From assembly GCA_031835245.2 (NCBI GenBank), contig JAVKOQ020000045.1, forward strand, positions 62,001 through 126,000: DNA of 64,000 nucleotides. The letters run 5' to 3'. Positions 1 to 48,559 of the stretch are shown here, piece after piece. The position numbers and the translations under genes are program-made. Position 1 is the stretch's first letter. Each line of letters starts with the position of its first letter. This DNA is from Balamuthia mandrillaris (Eukaryota). The notes under the pieces are model-generated. The model worked only from the letters and a program-made list of their open reading frames with translations. It did not search any database and had not been told where the DNA came from.

Positions 1-1039
1 ATGCTAAAAGAAAAATAACTAAAGGAGAAATTGTGTTTAGTGAAGAAGCTTTAGTTGCAGGTCCTTTAAAACATTCTCTTATTTTATATTGTGAGAGATG
101 CTTTAATGAAATACATTCTTCTAATGGTACATATTCTTAAACAAATTATTTGCAATTTTAATTTTATTTTTTTAAATAGGAGTTTCTTGTGATATTTGCC
201 AAACTGTTTATTGCTCTGAACAATGCAAACAAATGGCTTTAAATCAAGTATGTTTAATTGTTTTGTTTTTATTTATTTTTTTGTTAATTCATTTTAACTA
301 AACTTTTTAATAGTATCACAAGGTTTTATGTTTAAGATCATCAAAAAAGCATTCACTTACACAAATGTTTGAACTTGCAAAATGTCAAAAGGATCCTGTT
401 TCTCATATTTATCTTTTGACTTTAATTATCAAACTCATTACAACTCAAGTTCAATTATTAGCAAAAACAATAACTGTTCCTACTTCTTTTGATTTAAATG
501 CTGTCAAAACTGCTTTTTTAACAGCATTTGAAGAAAGAAATGGAAAACATATCAATTACTTTCCAGAATGTGACAAGTTTTATGCATTTACTTGTATTAA
601 TATGAAAACGATTTTAGAAGAACAAAGTGATATGCTTGAATTTTATAGTAATAAGTTAAAAGAGATGATTATGATTCAAGCAAGGCACTTTGAGGAATCA
701 CAACAATTTAGTGATGCTTTTACTCTATTACAAAGTGCAAAAAAATTGTATTACCTCTTTCAACAAGAAAGTTTAAAGCAAATGAGTATTCAAATTGCTT
801 TAAATGGATTACAATGCCTTCCTAATGTTGGTGGCCTTTATTTTATTCATTCTTTAGTTAATCACTCTGATGAACCTAATTGTGTGATTTCTCATCAATT
901 AGAACATCAACAAAACTTTTGTATTTATGTTAGAGCTACAAAAGATATTCAATTAGGAGAAGAAATAAGTTTAGATTATTTTTATAATTGTAATGATGAT
1001 AAACTTCGTCAACAAAATAAGAAAAAATATTTTATTTAA
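1..1039 (+). CDS. SMYD-type SET/MYND lysine methyltransferase, 5'-partial (exons ~1-126, 180-247, 314-1039)
   Basis: Spliced translation gives pre-SET AKRKITKGEIVFSEE, a MYND finger CERC...CDIC..YCSEQC...YHKVLC, and SET motifs LVNHSDEPN and GEEISLDY. GT-AG introns 127-179 and 248-313 keep the frame into ORF 365-1039. Confidence 0.85.
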
Positions 1040-1057
1040 TAAAAATTTCTTTTAAAT

Positions 1058-1433
1058 TATTGTGATAAGGCTGGTAGGGGAACAACTTAATGGACACTAA
1101 CTTGATGGGTGTAGGGAAAAGACCTTTAATAAAATGAAGGAAAGAGATATATATACAAGGAGAGATGGGGATAGGTATTATGAGAGAGTGTATTATTAAA
1201 AGATAGTTTGTAAAAATACTTTCATTTCTAATAATGAACATATTGTTTTCATTTTTAATGGTTCTTTGTTTTGTTTTTTTTTTAATTCTTTTCCTTTCTG
1301 AAGTATTGTGATAAGGCTGATAGAAAAGCAACTTAACAGATACTAACTTGATGGGTGTAGAAAAGACCTTTAATAGAATGAAAGAAAGAGAGATATATAC
1401 AAGGAGAGATAGGGATAGGTATTATGAGAGAGT
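1058..1433. repeat. Imperfect ~130-bp direct repeat (1058-1189 and 1304-1433)
   Basis: Both copies run TATTGTGATAAGGCTG...CTAACTTGATGGGTGTAG...GGATAGGTATTATGAGAGAGT. Confidence 0.9.
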
Positions 1434-2167
1434 AGTATAACAGTATTTTTTCTTTTTTTTGAACTTCAATCATTAGTAATTTGTTAAAAGTACTTTTTCT
1501 TTTTTTTGTATTACCTAGCACTTTAAAGTTTTTCCAAAATACTTTTTTTCTTACTTGTTTTATGTGAGAAAATACTGATAAACCCAAAAGTTGATTGTGC
1601 ACTGTAAAAAGTTGTATTAAATACTTTGATAGTTATTAGTATTGGTGTAGTTTTAAATGTAATAATTGAAGTTATAACATATTTTTACTGAGCTTTACCT
1701 TTGTAATTTATGAATGTGTTTCTTTTCAATTTAGCAACTAATAATTTGATAATAACATTGCAAAAGTGTATGAAAGAAACATTATTACTATTTAATTGCT
1801 TTTCTTTTTCTAATAATAATATACTGAAGTAATATTATAAAACACTATGAATAAATAGCAGGTTACTGTGTTACTAGAATAGGGCAGTTCTTAGAGTCTG
1901 AATGAATGAGGTTGCTGTCCTCTGGATTTCATAAGGATGTGCTGGTAATTGCTGATAGGGACCATTACTCAACTGAAGAAAGGATAGTGTGTTATTAATG
2001 TGCAAAATGAAAATATACAGCCTGATAAGTGACAACGTTGAGCCAGAGGTTGTTTGCACATATTAACATGCTTCTTCCGGGCTTAAAAATAACCAGGTGG
2101 CTGGAGGTACAGTTCCGAGGAAAAGTAGGACAGAGTTGCCAACATTCCCTGTTGCTCCAAAAAAATG

Positions 2168-5873: not shown

Positions 5874-6827
5874 ATGGATCCTCACGACTTAAACGAAGCC
5901 GTGAGAAAGACTGACGTCGACGCTCCCACCCCCATGAACTTCTCTCCTTCTCCCTCTTTCGACGACCTGCTTTTCCGTGATGAGTACAGTGGGGAGCGAC
6001 CTGCTTCTCCTGTGGTCTCTGTGTACAACAACATCGAAGTCTGCTCTCCCAATGGCCAAACCAAGTTCAACCAAACTGTTGTCTTGGAGGAAAAACTGGG
6101 CAGCGGCTGCTTCTCCGATGTCTACAAAGCCACCTGGAACGGTCAACTTGTGGCCGTCAAGGTTCTCAAACAATGCGCCAACCAACAAAAAACTTTTGAA
6201 CGTGAACTAGCCGCCCTTCGCCGAACCTTGGGCTGGTCCTCTACCATCCAACTTCTCGGTTTCCGTTCTGCTCCTTGCTTTTGGATCATTACCAACTTCA
6301 TGAACCAAGGCACTCTGGCCTCACGCATCGAGCAGCAACGTGCCACCGGAAAGCCCTTCACCACGGACCAACTGCTCTCGGTGGCAGTTCCGCTGGCCAC
6401 CACTCTTCATCGCCTTCACTCCCTCAGCCCTCCACTGCTTCATAGGGATTTAACTCCTGACAATATCCTCTTTCACGACGACCAACTCTGTTTGGGCGAC
6501 TTTGGCGTGGCTGTTAGCCTCTACCACAACCCTTCTGCACAACCTGAGGGCGCTTTGGAGGCTTGCCTCTCTCCCAACGGCCATCCCGACTACCGTGCTC
6601 CTGAGGTGCTCTCTGGAAGTTACGGCCTTCCTGCCGAGGTCTACAGCTTTGCCTCCGTGCTGCACGCCATGGTCTCTGCTGGTTCTGCCTCTACCGCGGA
6701 TGTGGAAGCCCTCGCTTGCCCTTCTTGGGTCAAACGCCTCATTGGCCTGTGTTGGGCGGAACCGAAAGCGCGCCCTACTTTTGCCGACATCCTCGCCTTT
6801 CTCGATCAAGTCAAACGCGCCTGTTGA
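5874..6827 (+). CDS. Intronless TKL-like Ser/Thr protein kinase
   Basis: LGSGCFSDVY, VAVKVL, HRDLTPDN, DFG, APE and CW..PKARPTF motifs; first ATG at 5874. Confidence 0.9.
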   Translation: MDPHDLNEAVRKTDVDAPTPMNFSPSPSFDDLLFRDEYSGERPASPVVSVYNNIEVCSPNGQTKFNQTVVLEEKLGSGCFSDVYKATWNGQLVAVKVLKQCANQQKTFERELAALRRTLGWSSTIQLLGFRSAPCFWIITNFMNQGTLASRIEQQRATGKPFTTDQLLSVAVPLATTLHRLHSLSPPLLHRDLTPDNILFHDDQLCLGDFGVAVSLYHNPSAQPEGALEACLSPNGHPDYRAPEVLSGSYGLPAEVYSFASVLHAMVSAGSASTADVEALACPSWVKRLIGLCWAEPKARPTFADILAFLDQVKRAC

Positions 6828-7255
6828 TTTCCCCCGCCAAATCCCCCATACAATGTATTTTTTATTTATTTCCAAGAAAATATTTTTCGCAAATGAAAAA
6901 ACCATGGCAACCATCGCCACCTATTTCCTTTTACTGTTAAATTGGTTGCTACGCACCACATGTGGCGCCCACCCCCCCATTTGGGAAGAAAAGAAAGACA
7001 AGAAGAAGAAAAGGAGTGGTGAGGGGCAGGAGCGGGTTGGGCGGGATTGTAGCGCACGCGGTTTCTTTTTTGGGGTGCTGCTTCTTCACGGTGTAACCTT
7101 CTTACTGAAGGTAACGTGGTTCAGTTTCTTGTTATAAGTTGTTTGTGTTGGCTAAAATTTTTTGTTTTCAAAAAAAGAAGCATTCACCGGTGCAATAGCA
7201 AATCGGCTTGCACACTTTTTTTTTGGAATAATCATCATACGAAGAGGAGTAGACC

Positions 7256-9118
7256 ATGCGAAAGATCAAGGGAACAACCAAGTCCAAGGGCTCTGGTCCT
7301 GGCTCAGTAGTCAGCGGTGTCAACGAGGACGCCTCCGCCGCCGAGCTGGCTCGGTTGCAGGCCAAGGACCCAAGAACCTGGACGGTTAGCGAGGTAGGCA
7401 AATGGTTGGACTTTATCGACATGAGTCAGTACAAGATCGTCTTCATTGAGAACAGCATTTCCGGCGCTGAGCTGTTCGAGCTGGAGACGGAGGACCTGAC
7501 CTCCATCAACGTCCGGAAATTGGGTCACAGGAAGAAGATCCTGAAAAAGATTGGCCAGCTGAAGAAGAGCTCCAAAGCAGCCTTCTCTCCTCTATCGGAC
7601 AATTCGGACTCGGATGATAGCAGCGGGAAGTTGAGTGGCGGCAGCGGAGGAACTCCTCTTGGAGGAGGCTCGACCTCCACTAGCAGCACTAGCAACAACC
7701 ACAAGAGTAAGAGCAGCAGCGGTGCCCCCAGTCAAGATGAGGAGATCACCGTCAAGTGTTTTCTGGGAGAGGATGCTACCATCCTGCGGGTCAGAGCGGA
7801 CATCTCCCACGCCAAGCTGCGTCGCAAGATCCGCTCCGAGTACAAGAAAGACATGGAGTTCAAGTACAAGGACGAGGACGATGATCTCATCTCCATCACC
7901 AAGCTGTCCCACCTTCGGACAGCCATTCGCCAGTGCCAAGGCAAACCGCTACGCCTCTACCTTACCCCTCACAAGCAGGACTATACGGTCGACTTTCCTC
8001 CCTGGGACACGGAGGTGTTGGATACACTCGTGGATGGGGTGGTGGTCATCGACAAGAAGGGCATCATCCAGTTCTTCAACCAATCCGCTTGTGAGATGTT
8101 TGGCTACTCTTCAAAGGCTATCGTGGGCAAGAATGTCAAAGCCTTGATGCCTTCTAGCAGTGCCCTCAGTCACGACAGCTACATCAAGGCCTACCTGGCC
8201 ACTGGAGAGGCTAAGATTATAGGCAAAGGCCGCAAGGTGATTGCCATGCGGAAGGACCAGTCCACTTTCCCCATTTACCTCTCCATCAGTGAAATGCGTT
8301 CCTCCAACAAGAAGGACGACGTCAAGTTCGTGGGCACCATCAAGGACCTAAGCAGCACCTTCTCTGCTGACACAGGCAGCAGTGAGGGCTCTTCCTCCTC
8401 TGCATTTGCAATCCTGGATAACATCCTGGACTGTGCCATCGTCATCAACAAGGATGGTCTCATCCAGTTCTTTAACAAGAAGGCGGAGGAACTGCTGGGC
8501 TTCACTCGAACGGAAGTGCTGGGCAGGAACGTGAAATGCCTTATGCCTAGCCCCTTCCACGAACAGCACGACTCCTACCTCAAGAATTACTTCGCAACGG
8601 GAGAGGCCAAGGTTTTGGGCGTTGGCAGGGAGGTCGTGGCCCAGCGCAAGGACGGTACCATCATCCCCGTCCACCTTAGCCTCACCGAGCAGGGAGAGGG
8701 CGATGCCGTTCTCTTCAGCGGCATCCTAAGACCCATCACCCAGGCCGACCTACCCGTCGGCAAGTCTGCTCTGCAGGAACTAAGGGAAGTGCTGGACAAC
8801 CTCATCGTGCCCGCCATCGTCATTGATGACAAGGCCACCATACACGCCTTCAACCAGCCTGCCTGCCAGCTCTTTGGCTACAACCTCATCGAGGTGGTAG
8901 GCAAGAACGTGAAGATACTGATGCCTAACCCGGACAGAGATAAGCACGATGGCTTCGTCCGTGCCTATATGAGGACGGGCAAGGGCAAGGTCATTGGCGT
9001 GGGCAGAGATGTTATTGCGCTGCACAAGGACGGCAGCATGATTCCTGTGCGCTTGTCTGTCACAGAGAAGAAGGATGATAACAGAGTTCTCTTTACGGGT
9101 ATTTTACAAAAGCTGTAA
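7256..9118 (+). CDS. SAM + PB1 + three FixL-type heme-PAS domain protein (620 aa, intronless)
   Basis: SAM (WTVSEVGKWL...ISGAELFEL...KLGHRKKILKKI); PB1 (VKCFLG...FKYKDEDDDLISI); three PAS repeats LMP...HDxY/F...TG...IIG/VLG/VIGxGR. Confidence 0.9.
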   Translation: MRKIKGTTKSKGSGPGSVVSGVNEDASAAELARLQAKDPRTWTVSEVGKWLDFIDMSQYKIVFIENSISGAELFELETEDLTSINVRKLGHRKKILKKIGQLKKSSKAAFSPLSDNSDSDDSSGKLSGGSGGTPLGGGSTSTSSTSNNHKSKSSSGAPSQDEEITVKCFLGEDATILRVRADISHAKLRRKIRSEYKKDMEFKYKDEDDDLISITKLSHLRTAIRQCQGKPLRLYLTPHKQDYTVDFPPWDTEVLDTLVDGVVVIDKKGIIQFFNQSACEMFGYSSKAIVGKNVKALMPSSSALSHDSYIKAYLATGEAKIIGKGRKVIAMRKDQSTFPIYLSISEMRSSNKKDDVKFVGTIKDLSSTFSADTGSSEGSSSSAFAILDNILDCAIVINKDGLIQFFNKKAEELLGFTRTEVLGRNVKCLMPSPFHEQHDSYLKNYFATGEAKVLGVGREVVAQRKDGTIIPVHLSLTEQGEGDAVLFSGILRPITQADLPVGKSALQELREVLDNLIVPAIVIDDKATIHAFNQPACQLFGYNLIEVVGKNVKILMPNPDRDKHDGFVRAYMRTGKGKVIGVGRDVIALHKDGSMIPVRLSVTEKKDDNRVLFTGILQKL

Positions 9119-9179
9119 GCACAACGAAAGAAAGAAAGACTGTCTTTCTTCGTGCGCTTGTATCATACTTTTCCTATTG

Positions 9180-28518: not shown

Positions 28519-31500
28519 ATGGAGGCCTCTTCTTCTCCCGAGGAAGCCACCAAACAGAAGAAGAAGAAGAAGGACGCGGACGCCAAGAAGAAAGACAAGG
28601 CGGCCAAGAGCAGCAAAAGCAGCGAAAAGAGACAACGCTCATTGTCCTCCTCCTCCTCCTCCTCGACCACAAAGTCTCAACGCCATGAACGTGAGGAAGT
28701 GGAAAGTGGGAAGAGCAGCGACTCCAGGCCCACCAGCCCCTCCCTGCCTGAAAAGAAACAGAAGAAGAGCAGCCCTTTGAGCAGCCCCAAAAACACCGTC
28801 AAAGGCAGCCCTCTTCTCCTCAAGCGAACTCTCAGCAACACCAAGAAGCGGCTCTCCCTTTCTCTGCTCGACCTGAAACGATCCACCTCTGGCGACAGGT
28901 CACGGCCAGAGACGGACTCAGAGTCGGAAGAGAGCGGTGGAGGTGGAGCAGGAACAACCAGCGGGTCGACCAAAGTCAGAAGGGCTGTGCGCAGTCTAAG
29001 TTGGAGAAAGAGGAGCAGCCAGAGGGGAAGAGGCAAGAGAGAGGGAGAAACCAGCGATGATGGTGGTGGCTATACCTCTTCCGAGCCTCGCGAAGTGAGC
29101 GAAGGAGAAGAGGAAGAACGTGAAAGAGGAGGAGAAGAGGAGGAGGAAGAAGAGGAATATGAGAGAAGATCAGGTCGATTGAAATCCTCAGAGAGAAAAC
29201 TTTCGATGGACGTGACCCTGCTCTTGTTGCAGGAGCAGGAACGAAGAAGACAACTTGAAGAAGAGTTGAAAAAAGAGAGGAAAAAGAAGAAAAAGAAAAA
29301 ATCGGGCGATGAGACAACGAGTTCAACGAGAAAGCAAAGAGGAGGCTCCATGCGCGAACTCAAATCAGGGCCCGTTCGGAGCAGCAGTCACATGCACGCT
29401 TCTTCTTCTGGCGACGAAGACGACATCACTCTCTCGTCATCCCCAGAGGCGCTGAGCGCTTCTGCCTCTCCGAGATCTCCCTCGCCTCTGCGAGAACTTC
29501 GGTTGAACCGATCCTCTGCCACTTCTTCGTCGGCTTCTTTCAGCAGCGGAACAAGCCCAAGCAAAAGTGGAGGCAGCTTATCCAAGATCTTTGCAAAGAG
29601 GAAGAAAGCAGTGGAAGAAGAGAACAAGAGAAGGGAGGAGGAAGCGAATAGCAGAATGAATGGATTGATGGAAGAGTTGAACAAGCTGAAAGAGCTGGAT
29701 GTTGAAAAAGAGAGGGAGAAGGAAGAATTGAGAAAGCTGTTGGATGAAGCGAGGAATGAGCTGGAGAAGAAAGCCAAAGAGGTGGATGGGCTCAACGAGG
29801 CCATCCGTGACGGAGAAGTTACCTCTCAGAGAGACAAAGGAGAGATCGCTTCAGCTCTTACTGCTGAACTTAACACCAAAGGTCATCTCTCTTCCTTCTT
29901 GTCCCTGTCGTTATCCTCTTTCAATCCTCACTCCTTGTTTTGTAGGAGAGGAGCTTGCCAAAGCGATGTTGTTGCTAAAAGAACAAGAACAGAAAACAAA
30001 CGAACTATTAGATGCAAAGGAACGACAGATAATCGAACTCCAGAAGGAGGTCGATCGCTCTCGACAGGAAACTCTTCAACAAGAAGAAAGAACAGAAGAG
30101 GCGAAACGCCAAAACGAGTTCTTGAGAGAAGAGGTGCAAAGAGTCGAAACCCACATGTATAACTTAAAGGAGGAGTTCGACAGGGTGGCAGCAGAGAGGC
30201 AAAAGGAGAAGGAGATGGCAAGCGAGAAGGAAGAGAAGTTGACAAGATTGTTGGAGGAAACAAGGAACGAAATACAGAAGAAGGAGAAAGAGATGGGTGA
30301 GCTGAACAAAGCTCTTAGTGAAAAGGCATCTGCGTTTGCGAAAGAGAAAGAAGAGATCACTTCCATTCTTACGGCTGAGCTTAACGCGAAAGGTGAGTCA
30401 GCTTTGGCGTTCTATTGTTATCTTTTATTTTCCCTTTGTTTATTCAACTGCTATGATACTGCAGGAAACGAACTGTCTCGAACAACTTTGTTGCTCACAG
30501 AACAAGAACAGAAAATGGAAGAGCTAAGAAGCGAAAGCGATTTGTTGAAAGGAAAGTTGGAAGCAGCACAAGCGCAGATGAAGCAAGTTACGGAAGAGAG
30601 GGAAAGGGAGCAGGAGAAAGAGAAAGAGAAGGAAGAGGAGCTGAGAGGATTGTTGGAAAGCACGAAGAATGCATTGCAGAAGAAAGAGAAAGAGATGGAT
30701 GAGCTCAGCCAAGCCTTTCATGAAAAGGAAACCGCATTGCAGAGAGAAAAAGAAGAGATCAGTTCGCATCTACATCGCAAAGGTTGATCCTCATCTTTCT
30801 TATTCTTCTCCCCTTCTTTTATTGATGTTTCTTCTTAAAATACTCCAGAGGAAGAATTGTCCCGAGCGACTCTCTTGCAACAAGAACAAGAGCAGCAAAT
30901 GAAAGAACGATTAGAGGCTTCAGAGCGACAGGTGGGGAATCTTCGGGAAGAGTTCGCTAGCTCTCGTCAAGAAACGCAGCGAAATGAAGAACAGCTGGAG
31001 GAGATACAGCAAGCAAAAACGCTGCTGAAAGGAGAGTTGGAAGCAACGGAAACACAGATGAACAAGTTGAAAGAAGAGCTTAACATCAGTAGATCACACG
31101 AAGAAGAACTGGAAAGAAAGGTGGAAGAGATGAAAGAAGAATGGAAGAACAAAGAGGCAGAGATGGAGAGAACCATTCAGCAAGAAAAGGAGAACGTAAA
31201 ACGGTTGATGGAAGAGAAGGAAGAAGAGTTGGCCAACCTTAAACAGGACTACGAACAGAGGGAACGAGAAGTTAACAACAACAAACAAAAAGAAATGGAG
31301 GAGAAAGATAAGGAGATAAAAGAGCTTACTGCTAGAGCCAAAGCAGAGTTGGAACAAAAAGAAGAGGCCATTAGAGCAAAGGACGATCTCATACGGAAGA
31401 ATGAAGGAGAATACGAGCGACGTTTGTGCGAGCTGGAAAAACGAGAACAAGAAGCACTCTCCTCGAAAGCGCAACTGAGCTTGCAACTGGAGGAGCAAAA

Positions 31501-34500
31501 CGACAACGTTCGAGTGATGGAGCAACAATTGAGCAGCCTTACGCAACGGCTTGACAACGAGAAAGCGGACAACGCAGAGTTGAAAGAGAAAGTGAACCAG
31601 TACGAAAGCGCGCTGCAACTGAAGGACTCAGAGTTGAACGGGCTTCGTCAAGGACACTCGCTTCAGATTCAATCTTTGAAAGAGGCGTTACAGCAAGCCG
31701 CAGAAGCATTACAGAGCCAAAAGGAGGAGATGGAAGAGGAGGTAACGCAGCTCCGAACGAAAATGGAAGAAGAGATAACACAACGAGAGGAGCGGTTGCT
31801 GCTAAGAGAACAGGAGCTGGAAGCGACAAGCAACAAAACCGCTCGACTCGAAGCGGAACTAGAACGCATGTCGGAAGAGAAACGACGACTGGAGAATGGG
31901 CTGAGAGAAGCGGAGAACCAGATGGAAGTTCAACGAAAGAGCTGGTCGGAGGAAAGGGAGCTCCTGCTGCTGGAGCACCAACGCACGGCCCAGTCCAGAG
32001 GGGAGGAAGCCGACCAGCTCCTCGCCGCGAAGCAGGACAAGTGGCGGCGGCGGGACGCGCAGCAGCGCCAAAGGGTGGAGGAGCTGGAGCAGCAACTGAG
32101 GGAAAGCGAGGCGCAAAGCCGCAGGAAGGAAGAGGAATGGGGGGAGGCCAAGGAGAGCCTCCAACGAAAACTCATCGAAGAGAGGACGAAAGCTCAGCAG
32201 CGGCTGGAGGCGGAGAGGGGGCGGTTGGAGAGGGAGAAGGAGGAGCTTTTGCAGCGAAAAGAGGAGGAGATGTCAGAGGTGCTGGGGAGGCAACAAGCCA
32301 CGAAGAAACAGAGGGAGGAAGAGGAGGCCTCAGCCGCAGCAAAATTGGCACAGGAGGCGCAAAAGCAGGTGCAGGCTGTGAAGATGAAGAAGAAGGAAAA
32401 GGTGGAGAGGCTGAAGGAGCAAGTGGGCCAGCTGAAGCAGAAGATGGAGGAGCTGAGCGTGGAGAAGGAGCGAAAAGAAAAAGAGTGGGAGGAGGAGAGG
32501 CAAACCGCGCTGAAAGAGGAAGCCCGGTGGCAGCAACAGCTGCAACGAGCCACGGAGGAGGCCAATGAGCTGAAGACGGCGTTGATGGAGGCCACTCGCT
32601 CTGTCGAAGCAAAGGAGGAGGAGCTCGCTTCTTTGCAGGAGCAGCATCGAAAGCAAGCCGCGGAGATGCAAAGCATGATCCTGGACGTGACCTCCCAGCT
32701 GAAGGACAGAATGCATTCCACGGCTCAGGAACTCACGGTGATGAAGAGCAAGCGAGAGCAGCTGACCATGGAGCTGTCTTATGTAAAGGAGAAGTTGGAA
32801 GCTTCGGAGACGCACTCGCGGGAGCTGCAACAGCAGCTGCAGATGACCAAAGCCGACAAAAAGCAGCTGAAACGAGAGCTGGAGCTAAAGTTGGAGGAGA
32901 AGAACAGAGAGATGGAACAAATGGTCCAAAGCGAGCAGCGAAAGATGGAGGAGAACGTGGCCAAGCAACTCGATCGGTTGGGCAAAGAGCTGGAAGAGAG
33001 CAGAGAGTTTGCAGCTGACATAGAGAAGAAATGGAAAGACGTGGAGCAGCAGTACGCCTTGCTCCAAGAGGAGAGCAGGAGACAAGTAGAAGAAGCAAGA
33101 AGCAAGGAGGAAAACGTGAGCAAAGAACGAGATAGACTCAGCGAAGAGGCGAAACAACACAAAGCCTTGCTAGAGAAAATAGAGAAGCAGAGAGAAGAAA
33201 CAGAGAAACAACTCGAACAGATGAAGAATGAGTTTGAGCGCGAGAGAGACGAACGCATGAAGGAAAAACAGCTCTCCTCGAAAGAGATGGAACAGATAAT
33301 TCACCAACTAGAAGAGAAGGAACGACACTTTGTTGATGCTCGGACTAGAAGCGCGGATGAAGAGAAAACAAAGTTACTGGAAGAAATGAAACAAGTTCGG
33401 TTAGAGCTAGAGTCCAGCAAAACGAAAGCGGAAGAGCTTCAAAGAGAAGTCGAGGCAAGACAACAGCAACTGAACAAAGTACAAATAGAGAATGAAAGCA
33501 AAATGGAAAGAGCAGAACAGGAGAAGAGAAAGATGGAAGAACAGTTGGATCGACTGAAGTCTGAAATGCAAGAGAAAGAACGACAGTATAAACGATTGGA
33601 AGATGAAGCAAAAGCAAAGAACTTGAAGCTGGAAGAAACAGTTGTTAAAGAACGAGAACTGTTTGAGGCTTTGAGAGAAAAACTCAAGACTACAGAAGAA
33701 GAATTGAAGATTGTTCGTTCTAACGAAGAAGAACGAAAACGGAGAGAAGAGGAAGTAATTGCAAATTTGCAACAAGCGCTTTTCTCCACAAACGAAAAGC
33801 TACAGCACCACGTTAAAGAAACAACGAAACTTACGGAAGAACTCGAACAAATGCGAATTGATGCGAGCAAACAACAATCTCGGATCGCTATCATCGAAGA
33901 TGAGCTACGTGCTGAAAAGGAGCGCTCTAATCGCCTCATCGCTTCCATCGAAGAGGAGAAAGAAAGGGCAACGAACGAGATGAAAGCTCTTTGGCAAGCA
34001 AAAGAGAAGCAGTTCGAACAAACGATGCACGAGTTCACAACAAAGACAACACAATTGGAGAAAGAAATGTCCGCTTTACAACAAATCATTCGAAGCAACG
34101 AAGCAGAAATGGAGAAGCTCAAGCATCAAGTTCGTCAGAGAGAAGAGCAGCTGACTATCGTTCAAGGTGAGTTGATGGCTGTTATCCAACAACAAAAACA
34201 ACCACAACCACAACCACAACCACCACACAGTCCCACTACCATCCAAACACATCTTGGCTCTCGTTTGGTGCCACTTTCACCCTTATCTTCTCGTGCACGA
34301 GAGGAAAGAAAACGAGGACGGCTGATGGAAAAATCTAAAGAAGCTGAAGACAGACAGAAGGCTCATGAAAAGAAGAGAGCTGCAAGAAGAGAGGAAAGTT
34401 TACACCAGGGTTTTGATCAAGCGACGGATTCTCGAGAAGACGTAGAAGAAGAGGAAGAAGACTCCGTCGCTTCGCCCCTGTTAGTTTCCTCCATCACCAC

Positions 34501-34984
34501 TTCTACCGCTCGAAAAGAACGCAGAAAACATCGAAGGCGATGGAGAAGTTTGGGCAGTTGGAACGAAATGAAGCGACTCCTTTTCGCTGCTGAAGGTGAA
34601 GAAGCAGAAGAAGAGACCGGAGAAGTGCAACGTCCTCAAGAAGAAGCTTCCACCGTTCGTTACATGCCATTCATTCCGGCAGTACCAACTTCTATTTCGC
34701 TCATTAACGCTTCTTCTCCATCTGCTTCCTCGTCTTTAGTTCTCTTCTCTTCTTCCGATGTAACAACAACGGGAAGTCAACAGCAACAACAATTAGTACC
34801 ATCCTCACCACCACCATCTCCTTCTGCTTCATCCGCGTTGAAAGGATTGTTGTGGTGGCCCATTTCGGCAACACAACGATGCATCTTCCTCTTGTTCCGT
34901 TTGTGGACATGGCTCCCTTTGTTGTTCCTTCGCATTGTCTTCTCCTTCTTCACCCGCTCTCCTCGTGTACCTGATAGCGATTGA
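28519..34984 (+). CDS. Giant coiled-coil protein with Ser/Lys-rich N-terminus and C-terminal hydrophobic anchor (golgin-like), 4 exons
   Basis: Long E/K/Q heptad region; introns 29882-29945, 30393-30464, 30783-30848; C-terminal CIFLLFRLWTWLPLLFLRIVFSFF. Confidence 0.75.
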
Positions 34985-46712: not shown

Positions 46713-48559
46713 TCTCCCTTTCATTTTGGATGACTGATGACTGACTGAATCATTTTCCTTTGTTTTTATTTAATTTTATTTTAACGTAACAGCTGTAATA
46801 ATGGGTAGAAATAAGGACGTGTCATATGGACTTACGTATGGCTTCATGGACCAGATTGACTTCTTCTTGGAGGAAATCAAGGACGGCAAGTACAAGCGGG
46901 TGAGCAAGGATGGTAAGGTGGAGTGGCTTGACTTTGTGCCTAGAGTGGAAGTACTCAAACAAAAAGATGGAAAGCACGAAGACATTACGCTTGTATTCTA
47001 TGAAAACGATAACGGAGTGTTGGAATTGGACAAGCATGAACTTGGCCCTAACAACAGCACTGCTTTGGCGGTGGAAGACGGCATATACTTAATGCGCAAG
47101 TGGTCTTGGGCAGAAATGGGTACGCTTACGCTTATACTTCTTTTCTTTCTCGTTGGTTGTTTTATTTTTTTTTTTTTGAAGATGACTGAACATAACATCT
47201 ATTTTAATTAGCACCATCCGACATTCAAGCCTTTGTACCCCCACCAAAAGTGTCCACCGCAAAAGAGGCACAAGAAGCACTCAAGCACACTGCCCTCTCT
47301 GCCAACTTTTTGATTGCTGATAGCCAAGGCAACATCGCTTATCAACAGTCTGGCTTTCTTCCTAACCGTGCTCCTTCTCACTCCGGTACCCTTTCCTCTT
47401 TCTGCTCTCTCCCTTCCTTCCATCTTTTTTTTTCCCTTTGTATTTATTTCTACTTCAACGAACAGGCTTCCATCCAGTAATAGCATGGACACCAGGGTTC
47501 GAACACAGTTGGAAAGGTCGAGTGCACCCCGATGAGCTTCACTCCATCTACAACCCCGACACCCACTTCATCGCCACCGCCAACAACAACATGCAAAGAC
47601 CACGTCACAACAACGCCTCCATTCCTCTCTCTATTAACCTCCACATGGGTCCCTATCGTGCCGCTCGCATCACTGACCTCCTCAGCGACAAAACAAAGCA
47701 GCAAACCAAGTTCACTATCGAAGACATGAAAGCCTATCAAGTGGATCGCTTCTCCAAAGAAGCCCAACAGTTTATGAAGCTCCTTCGACCAGTCCTACCG
47801 GAGCAAAGTGTCTCTGCTGCTGCCGATCTTCTTCGTGAGTGGGACCTGACCTATTCCGCGGAGAGCAAAGGCCCTATAGTCTATTCGCTCGTGTGGCAGG
47901 CCTTGATGGAGGATGTCTTTGGAAGAAGCTTCGGAGCAGATGTTTGGCGGTTCCTCTCCGACCATACTTTCTCCCTACTGGAGTTTCATTGGTATTTTGA
48001 TCGGATTTTGCTCGGCGCAGAAGATGCTTTTCTGAAGGAAGATGCAGGAGAAGGGATAAATTCCAAGTTGTTTGAGGAGGAATGGTTTGGAAAGGAAGGA
48101 AGGAAGGAGACGTTTAGACGAGTGGCGACACGAGTGCTGAGCGAAATTGATGCTATCGGATTGGAGAACGTGGAGACCTATGCCACCAACCACTCTATGC
48201 TGATGGTCAACATTTTGTTCAACGGAAAGTTGCCGGTTGCATCCTTGTTGGGCATCGATGTGAAGGACGTTCCTGTGGAAGGATGTCATGCCACTCTCTT
48301 ACAGGTTTTATTTTCTTCCTCTTTTAAGTTTTTGCTTCCTTTAACAAGAACAACCAAAACTCAAAAATAGGGAGCAATGTTTAAGGATAAAGGAAGATCT
48401 ATAACGTTTGGTCCTTCGTGGCGTTACGTGGCTGATCTTGCAACCTCAACTGTGTGGAGCGCTCTTCCCAGCGGCCCCTCGGACAGACCCTATTCCGGCC
48501 TTTACACCAACCCCTCTTTCTTTGAGCATCACTACAAGCCCACCATCTGCCAACCGTAG
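45455..48559 (+). CDS. Penicillin acylase / AHL-acylase family Ntn-hydrolase (peptidase S45), multi-exon
   Basis: N-terminal signal anchor; GWAHAQDRLVQM; catalytic SNNWVV (Ser codon 46498); NDPHL; MGRN; NFLIADSQGNIAY; FIATANN; GPSWRYVADL. Confidence 0.9.

What the first reader, a model, noticed from the sequence alone, without database searches (positions are those of the whole stretch)
7256..9118. Eukaryotic gas/O2 sensor candidate: SAM-PB1 scaffold fused to three FixL-type heme-PAS domains
Seen: each PAS repeat keeps the FixL heme-pocket pattern. The proximal His is in SHDSYI (codon 8171), QHDSYL (8567) and KHDGFV (8945), and the distal Arg is in IIGKGR, VLGVGR and VIGVGR. There is no kinase, cyclase or phosphodiesterase output; only the eukaryotic oligomerisation modules SAM and PB1 precede them. 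The gene has no introns in an intron-rich genome. Known: rhizobial FixL binds heme through this His and senses O2 through this Arg; SAM and PB1 couple adaptors to MAP3Ks (Ste50/Ste11, MEK5/MEKK2). Inference: a bacterial-derived heme sensor wired into eukaryotic kinase signalling, e.g. for aerotaxis or encystation.
Basis: partly seen in the sequence, partly recalled or inferred. Interest (0 to 1): 0.82.

Follow-up and report, generated by a model that had tools for sequence, protein, structure and literature searches.

The report
Amoeba triple-heme oxygen sensor scaffold
A transcribed amoeba gene, conserved across the discosean amoebae, joins three bacterial-type domains that likely bind heme and oxygen to two protein-docking modules and has no enzyme part, so it is an untested candidate for the unknown sensor that lets amoebae such as Acanthamoeba crawl toward oxygen, likely acting through Ras regulators.

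Summary
Observation confirmed: a transcribed 620-aa ORF (7256-9118) with SAM, PB1 and three PAS domains, each keeping FixL's heme His and distal Arg. The coding region has no intron, but the gene has a 67-nt 5'-UTR intron. The architecture recurs in Acanthamoeba, Dermamoeba, Paradermamoeba, Stenamoeba and Paramoeba. His and Arg are the only invariant residues in 116 amoebal-type PAS copies and hold in 79 and 78 of 84 held-out copies, so heme binding is likely. The MAP3K output is not supported: no kinase among the 150 best SAM-PB1 hits, whereas the same module is fused to RasGAP plus heme-PAS, RasGEF, LOV light sensors and PP2C. Best reading: an O2 sensor that signals by SAM/PB1 co-assembly, most likely with Ras regulators. 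Heme, ligand and partners are untested; FixL's Arg206 switch is absent. Acanthamoeba aerotaxis has no known sensor. Eukaryotic FixL-type PAS domains are not new (the scan noted others on other DNA); I found this architecture in no paper and no earlier scan note.

The parts
7111..7177 (+). 67-nt GT..AG intron in the 5' UTR
   Evidence: 9 raw RNA reads in 3 runs skip it; DNA contigs do not; ends checked
7256..9118 (+). Intron-free coding sequence, 620 aa: SAM-PB1-PAS-PAS-PAS
   Evidence: transcript contig 7216-9127 without gaps; strain variants 30 synonymous, 8 not, of 38 codons shown
7376..7564 (+). SAM domain (aa 41-103) with acidic mid-loop and basic end-helix surfaces
   Evidence: Pfam SAM_1 E 3e-18; closest solved SAMs Caskin, DGK-delta, liprin, Shank; charge pattern kept in the family
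7565..7744 (+). Ser/Gly-rich flexible linker (aa 104-163)
   Evidence: pLDDT under 50 for aa 113-160; length 29-73 aa in 35 relatives
7745..7969 (+). PB1 domain (aa 164-238) with both the basic Lys167 and the acidic OPCA-type motif (aa 206-210): dual type
   Evidence: Pfam PB1 E 2.5e-09; both surfaces kept in 40 of 47 non-redundant members
8009..8353 (+). PAS1 (aa 252-366): His306 (codon 8171), Arg326; Lys at the FixL Ile218 position, Ala at the Arg206 position
8405..8740 (+). PAS2 (aa 384-495): His438 (codon 8567), Arg458; best match to BjFixL
8741..8800 (+). PAS2-PAS3 linker with a conserved helix (aa 505-515), candidate signalling helix
   Evidence: helix in the model; length 21-29 aa in 35 of 35 relatives, 23-25 in 29
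8783..9115 (+). PAS3 (aa 510-620): His564 (codon 8945), Arg584; ends the protein
   Evidence: His564 and Arg584 invariant in a 35-sequence alignment

Best explanation
The gene encodes a soluble, enzyme-less protein whose three FixL-type PAS domains likely each hold a b-type heme and bind O2, and whose SAM and PB1 domains are predicted to dock head-to-tail with copies of itself and with other SAM-PB1 proteins, most likely Ras GEFs and GAPs, so that oxygen level would tune Ras signalling and movement in the amoeba. Shown: architecture, transcription, conservation of the heme His and distal Arg, dual docking surfaces, and natural fusions of the same module to RasGAP, RasGEF, LOV and PP2C in related unnamed eukaryotes. 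Inferred: heme binding (about 0.9), a sensing role rather than storage (about 0.75), signalling by changed assembly, Ras regulators as partners (about even odds), and a role in aerotaxis or hypoxic encystment.
For: His and Arg are the only invariant residues among 116 amoebal-type PAS domains of 39% mean identity, Leu236-equivalent 98%; 79 and 78 of 84 in domains not used to build the profile, against 60% His in the wider FixL cluster (PMC10468136). Fold matches BjFixLH, rmsd 0.8 A. PB1 keeps both surfaces in 40 of 47 members, SAM keeps acidic and basic faces. Of 77 SAM+PB1 proteins among 150 hits: 35 heme-type PAS only, 2 RasGAP+heme-PAS, 3 RasGEF, 3 LOV, 1 RasGAP+LOV, 33 with nothing else detected. 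The RasGAP-START-SAM-PB1-PAS-PAS fusion occurs in two independent records (P0334, P0342), and a SAM-PASx3-PP2C fusion in P0043 with a truncated second record P0045. A. castellanii Neff, which has two paralogs, shows aerotaxis near 1% O2 with no known sensor (10.64898/2026.10.08.757612).
Against: No bench data for heme or ligand. FixL's Arg206, tied to its switching mechanism (2cmn title; its chain shows Ala there), is Ala/Asn/Ala here and variable in the family; His214 is Lys. The Ras, LOV and PP2C fusions come from unnamed records, so their presence in the same cell as this protein is not shown; no genome was held. Their SAM-PB1 modules do not form a supported clade with this protein. The model gives no confident domain arrangement (pTM 0.34), and SAM hangs on a floppy linker. 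Arrays of 13-18 His-PAS domains without SAM/PB1 exist, which fits storage as well. Dictyostelium also shows aerotaxis (PMC10307954), yet none of 30 proteins looked up carried a dictyostelid name.
Confidence: 0.5

Rival explanations
1. Heme-based gas sensor that feeds a protein kinase (MAP3K-type) cascade through SAM/PB1.
For: MEKK2 PB1 is a joint-best solved match for the PB1 (E 5.2e-07); Acanthamoeba has six SAM-bearing tyrosine kinases (PMC4053784); PASK-type kinases of A. castellanii carry FixL-cluster PAS (PMC10468136). Only 150 of 11,404 hits were inspected.
Against: 0 of 150 best SAM-PB1 hits have a kinase domain (that screen missed one Pfam-confirmed RasGEF, so it is not exhaustive); the adjacent kinase has neither SAM nor PB1.
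Confidence: 0.13
2. O2 store, NO scavenger or heme buffer: a polymerising multi-heme protein with no signalling role, where SAM/PB1 only cluster or localise it.
For: No output domain; FixL Arg206 lost; related eukaryotic proteins stack 13-18 His-PAS domains (P0135, P0136).
Against: The same cassette is fused to RasGAP and PP2C; PAS1 and PAS3 keep position-specific identity across genera; RNA depth was only a few reads in the 3-5% of each run that was read, not what a bulk store would suggest, though no quantitative comparison was possible.
Confidence: 0.14
3. Heme sensor for NO, CO, redox state or heme itself rather than O2.
For: FixL domains also bind CO, NO and cyanide (structure titles); PAS1 has Lys at the distal Ile218 position in 10 of 20 members, the position of DosP's Met95 ligand (recalled), so it may be six-coordinate.
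Against: The distal Arg that stabilises bound O2 in FixL/DosP (established knowledge) is invariant or nearly so; Acanthamoeba has separate H-NOX proteins proposed for NO (PMC4053784).
Confidence: 0.16
4. The PAS domains bind a non-heme ligand, or none, and the His/Arg are structural.
For: Human PASK PAS, from the same neighbourhood, lost heme (PMC10468136); 5 of 84 held-out family domains lack the His.
Against: His and Arg outrank every structural Gly and Asn in conservation; where His is lost the pocket is degenerate.
Confidence: 0.07

Closest known systems
FixL heme-PAS domain (B. japonicum 1dp6/1drm/1xj4/8js5; S. meliloti 1d06)
   Same: PAS fold (rmsd 0.8 A, about 42% identity), proximal His200, distal Arg220, Ile215/Leu236/Ile238-type pocket
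   Different: Three heme-type repeats; no histidine kinase; Arg206 and His214 not kept; eukaryotic SAM and PB1 at the N-terminus instead of a C-terminal enzyme
E. coli DosP (EcDOS) heme-PAS phosphodiesterase
   Same: Same heme-PAS cluster (E 4.6e-19; PMC10468136)
   Different: No EAL/GGDEF output; no Met at the distal ligand position (Lys/Val/Val; DosP numbering recalled)
Eukaryotic FixL-type PAS proteins: Chlamydomonas FXL proteins (recalled, reported to bind heme and O2; paper not held), protist PASK PAS (PMC10468136), Diplonema and TmcB-like multi-PAS proteins
   Same: FixL-type His-PAS in a eukaryote; amoebal and other eukaryotic copies fall on one side of a 95/94 branch with 5 prokaryote-like rows
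   Different: Those are membrane or kinase proteins; none examined carries SAM plus PB1
SAM and PB1 polymer/adaptor modules (DGK-delta, Shank, Caskin SAMs; MEKK2, NBR1, TFG PB1s; yeast Ste50/Ste11 recalled)
   Same: Best solved matches of the N-terminal half; dual charged surfaces
   Different: None is joined to a heme sensor; Ste11/Ste50 pair SAM with a Ras-association fold, not PB1 (recalled)
A. castellanii 'PAS domain S-box' proteins XP_004338353 and XP_004334674
   Same: Same architecture, 56% and about 40% identity
   Different: Only automatic names; no function found in print. Two genes of that product name are listed as bacterial transfers in the genome paper's table, mapping not verified

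Membership tests
FixL/DosP-type heme-PAS domain | PAS fold superimposable on FixL heme domain | tested here: met
   Foldseek TM 0.95 by target, rmsd 0.8 A to 1xj4; phmmer E 1.6e-25 to 1dp6
FixL/DosP-type heme-PAS domain | Proximal His on the F-alpha helix | tested here: met
   His306/438/564; 116 of 116 and 79 of 84
FixL/DosP-type heme-PAS domain | Distal Arg220/Arg97 and hydrophobic distal triad | tested here: met
   Arg326/458/584; Ile/Val at 215; Leu236 98%
FixL/DosP-type heme-PAS domain | Propionate-contacting Arg206 and His214 of the FixL switch | tested here: not met
   Ala/Asn/Ala and Lys/Lys/Lys; also variable among prokaryote-like rows (Arg in 129 of 216)
FixL/DosP-type heme-PAS domain | Binds heme b and O2 reversibly | not testable with these tools
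   needs spectroscopy
FixL-FixJ two-component system | Histidine kinase output and cognate response regulator | tested here: not met
   no HisKA/HATPase among 14 Pfam families; protein ends with PAS3 and the transcript contig ends at 9127
Dual-type (I/II) PB1 polymer module | Basic Lys in strand 1 plus acidic OPCA motif | tested here: met
   Lys167 and D206-x-D208-x-D210; 40 of 47 members
Dual-type (I/II) PB1 polymer module | Front-to-back self-assembly | not testable with these tools
   needs biophysics or imaging
MAP3K adaptor (Ste50- or MEK5/MEKK2-type) | Cognate SAM or PB1 partner on a kinase | tested here: inconclusive
   0 of 150 best hits with a kinase, but 11,404 hits in all and no genome held

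The most novel reading that the evidence does not exclude
Discosean amoebae have a plug-in sensing platform: SAM-PB1 tags co-polymerise heme-PAS oxygen sensors and LOV blue-light sensors with Ras GEFs, Ras GAPs and PP2C, and this three-heme protein is the missing cytosolic receptor for Acanthamoeba aerotaxis, its unlike hemes giving the reported logarithmic O2 response.
Probability: 0.22. Interest if true: 0.9.

Novelty: new variant of a known kind. Interest (0 to 1): 0.7.

Why it matters
Direct O2 sensing for cell movement in eukaryotes has no known receptor: in Dictyostelium mitochondria, NO and oxidative stress were excluded (PMC10307954), and for A. castellanii a 2026 preprint states that the molecular mechanism is largely unknown. 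A. castellanii Neff has two paralogs of this protein, so the question becomes testable by spectroscopy and knock-down. It would also be a heme-PAS sensor whose output is assembly state rather than a fused enzyme, and the shared SAM-PB1 tag on LOV and Ras regulators points to an undescribed signalling layer in amoebae that live in low-oxygen soil, sediment and tissue.

Tried and rejected
No whole genome was held, so partners in the same organism could not be sought. Complex prediction of two copies of aa 164-619 with two hemes gave no verdict. Prokaryote genome scan: 129 pattern matches, none confirmed (one pattern, weak). Search of longer proteins found no SAM-PB1-PAS fusion over 1153 aa among 120 listed of 149. 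ESM Atlas returned only generic PAS clusters. Trees: 110 columns are too few to name a donor; amoebal PAS are not a clean clade (4 changes; FastTree); SAM-PB1 tree is mostly unresolved; no AU test was run. The adjacent kinase was considered as partner and rejected: no SAM or PB1. Contamination by bacterial DNA rejected: eukaryotic domains, spliced UTR, found in several runs and studies under one species label. No listed holder run was on record as RNA; expression rests on laid reads. Paper searches for this architecture found nothing. The Chlamydomonas FixL-homologue paper could not be retrieved; passages of PMC8694187, PMC4496561, PMC3634410, 10.1101/2024.03.22.586359, PMC13678082, PMC3820574 and PMC6324907 held nothing on it. 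Supplement of PMC10468136: only one PDF held, no accession hits; its data tables, which may list these PAS domains, were not seen. The signalling supplement of PMC4053784 was not held either.

Full report
Observation. The ORF at 7256-9118 is real and encodes 620 aa. Pfam finds SAM (41-103), PB1 (164-238) and three PAS domains and no enzyme family. The best solved relative is the B. japonicum FixL heme domain (E 1.6e-25); the R220A mutant chain has Ala where the query has the Arg of VLGVGR. The AlphaFold model (mean pLDDT 73.6, pTM 0.34) overlays CO-bound FixL at 0.8 A but leaves the domain arrangement open.

Gene structure and expression. A 1929-nt contig from run X13, in which the neighbouring DnaJ gene appears spliced, covers 7216-9127 without gaps; raw RNA reads from three runs of one study cover the gene at a depth of a few reads in the 3-5% of each run that was read, and 9 of them splice a 67-nt GT..AG intron at 7111-7177. 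DNA contigs hold that stretch unspliced. So the coding region is intron-free but the gene is not. Of 38 variant codons that the calls listed (more were not shown), 30 are synonymous and none of the 8 others touches the heme His or Arg.

Family. Of the 119 other proteins listed (410 hits in all), 29 carry SAM, PB1 and PAS together. All 10 looked up belong, directly or by a cluster member, to named Discosea: Acanthamoeba castellanii (two paralogs, the closer 56% identical), Paradermamoeba, Dermamoeba, Stenamoeba (two), Paramoeba (three, with an extra degenerate PAS) and Cochliopodium (SAM and three PAS; its PB1 is below Pfam's reach). These span Longamoebia, Himatismenida and Flabellinia. PAS1 and PAS3 each group by position across genera, so the triplet is old. 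The window's protein groups with the Acanthamoeba-like rows (100/99).

Heme pocket. Among 116 amoebal-type PAS domains with 39% mean identity, the only invariant residues are the His200 and Arg220 equivalents; Leu236 is 98% (about half of these rows built the profile, so this set is biased). In 84 domains from 33 proteins found by their SAM-PB1 half and not used for the profile, His holds in 79 and Arg in 78. The wider FixL/DosP cluster keeps the His in 60% (PMC10468136, passages). Against a simple FixL copy: Arg206 is Ala/Asn/Ala and His214 is Lys; a structure titled for the role of that proximal Arg in switching carries Ala there. Heme binding is therefore likely, O2 the most likely ligand, but coupling may differ from FixL's.

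Output. PB1 has both the basic Lys and the acidic motif in 40 of 47 non-redundant members, and SAM keeps an acidic mid-loop and basic end-helix; by established knowledge of PB1 and SAM domains these are the surfaces for head-to-tail docking. The best solved matches are Caskin, DGK-delta, liprin and Shank SAMs and MEKK2, NBR1 and TFG PB1s. A SAM-PB1 profile against 1.84 billion representatives gave 11,404 hits; I examined the best 150. 77 have both domains: 35 with heme-type PAS only, 2 with RasGAP plus two heme-PAS, 3 with RasGEF, 3 with LOV, 1 with RasGAP plus LOV, and 33, mostly short, with nothing else detected; 9 of 150 matched RasGEF and 0 a kinase. Pfam on 65 of the 150 confirmed these fusions, added one RasGEF the script had missed, and showed no kinase (best five families only). 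A SAM-PASx3-PP2C fusion also exists. By fusion logic the output is more likely Ras regulation or dephosphorylation than a MAP3K. Limits: these records are unnamed, so co-occurrence in one cell is not shown, and their SAM-PB1 modules are scattered in an unresolved tree.

Origin. In a 78-row tree of 110 columns, all 40 eukaryote-type domains (34 amoebal-type, 6 from Diplonema and other eukaryote-like proteins) fall on one side of a 95/94 branch with 5 of 38 prokaryote-like rows, one of them from Fulvivirga. The tree is unrooted and names no donor. The Acanthamoeba genome paper's transfer table lists two genes with the same product name as the two paralogs, with Microscilla marina as nearest neighbour; one reads 295 under hypoxia against 35 in mid-log (also 231 in stationary phase and 190 with mannose), the other is flat (PMC4053784, supplement S2 rows). 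I could not map those locus tags to the accessions, and the 34 introns listed for the first fit a 662-aa protein poorly, so this is a lead only.

Context in print. FixL and DosP are the bacterial models. Eukaryotic FixL-type PAS domains are not new: protist PASK domains sit in the heme cluster (PMC10468136), Chlamydomonas FXL proteins are recalled as heme/O2 binders (paper not retrieved), and this scan noted a fungal cyclase fusion and enzyme-less PAS arrays on other DNA, as I found in P0135 (18 His-PAS) and P0136 (13). The genome paper's main text discusses prolyl hydroxylases and H-NOX, not FixL (passages). Six searches found no description of SAM+PB1+heme-PAS, in a library that lacks most subscription papers; the scan's notes held none either. 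A. castellanii aerotaxis follows the 1% O2 line with logarithmic, mainly temporal sensing and an unknown mechanism (10.64898/2026.10.08.757612, passages); in Dictyostelium mitochondria were excluded as sensor (PMC10307954, passages and title).

Verdict. A real, conserved, apparently undescribed architecture: it works like a FixL-type heme sensor but is not a FixL. Best reading: O2 sensor acting through SAM/PB1 co-assembly, probably with Ras regulators (0.5); rivals are another gas or redox ligand (0.16), storage (0.14), kinase output (0.13), non-heme (0.07). New variant of a known kind; interest 0.7 because it makes an open question directly testable.

Noticed in passing
window 1-2000, ORF 314-1039 (+): AT-rich island (GC 0.26 against about 0.47) with an uninterrupted SET-domain ORF (Pfam E 8.2e-11, GC3 0.14); may be a foreign or viral-type insertion.
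   Followed up: partly
window 5874-6827 (+): Uninterrupted tyrosine-kinase-like kinase ORF just upstream on the same strand, transcribed, without SAM or PB1.
   Followed up: partly
P0135 (Logan, 3016 aa): Beta-propeller-like N-terminus followed by six triplets of His/Arg-complete PAS domains (18 of 18), no output domain found.
   Followed up: partly
P0348, P0392, P0394, P0400: LOV-type (NCRFLQ motif) proteins joined to SAM-PB1, one also with a degenerate RasGAP: candidate blue-light sensors on the same docking module.
   Followed up: partly
P0334, P0342: RasGAP-START-like-SAM-PB1-PAS-PAS fusions with heme His in all four PAS: candidate O2-regulated RasGAPs; both records lack the N-terminus of the GAP domain.
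   Followed up: partly
P0136 (Diplonema japonicum), P0139: Membrane proteins with 13 and 4 FixL-type PAS domains, the second with a TmcB TPR domain.
   Followed up: no
window 47366-48370 (+): Penicillin amidase family exon (Pfam E 3.6e-29), a mostly bacterial family, in this eukaryotic window.
   Followed up: no
window 30839-34984 (+): 1381-codon purine-rich open frame with no Pfam match, in a region of strong GC and AT skew; probably a repeat protein.
   Followed up: no
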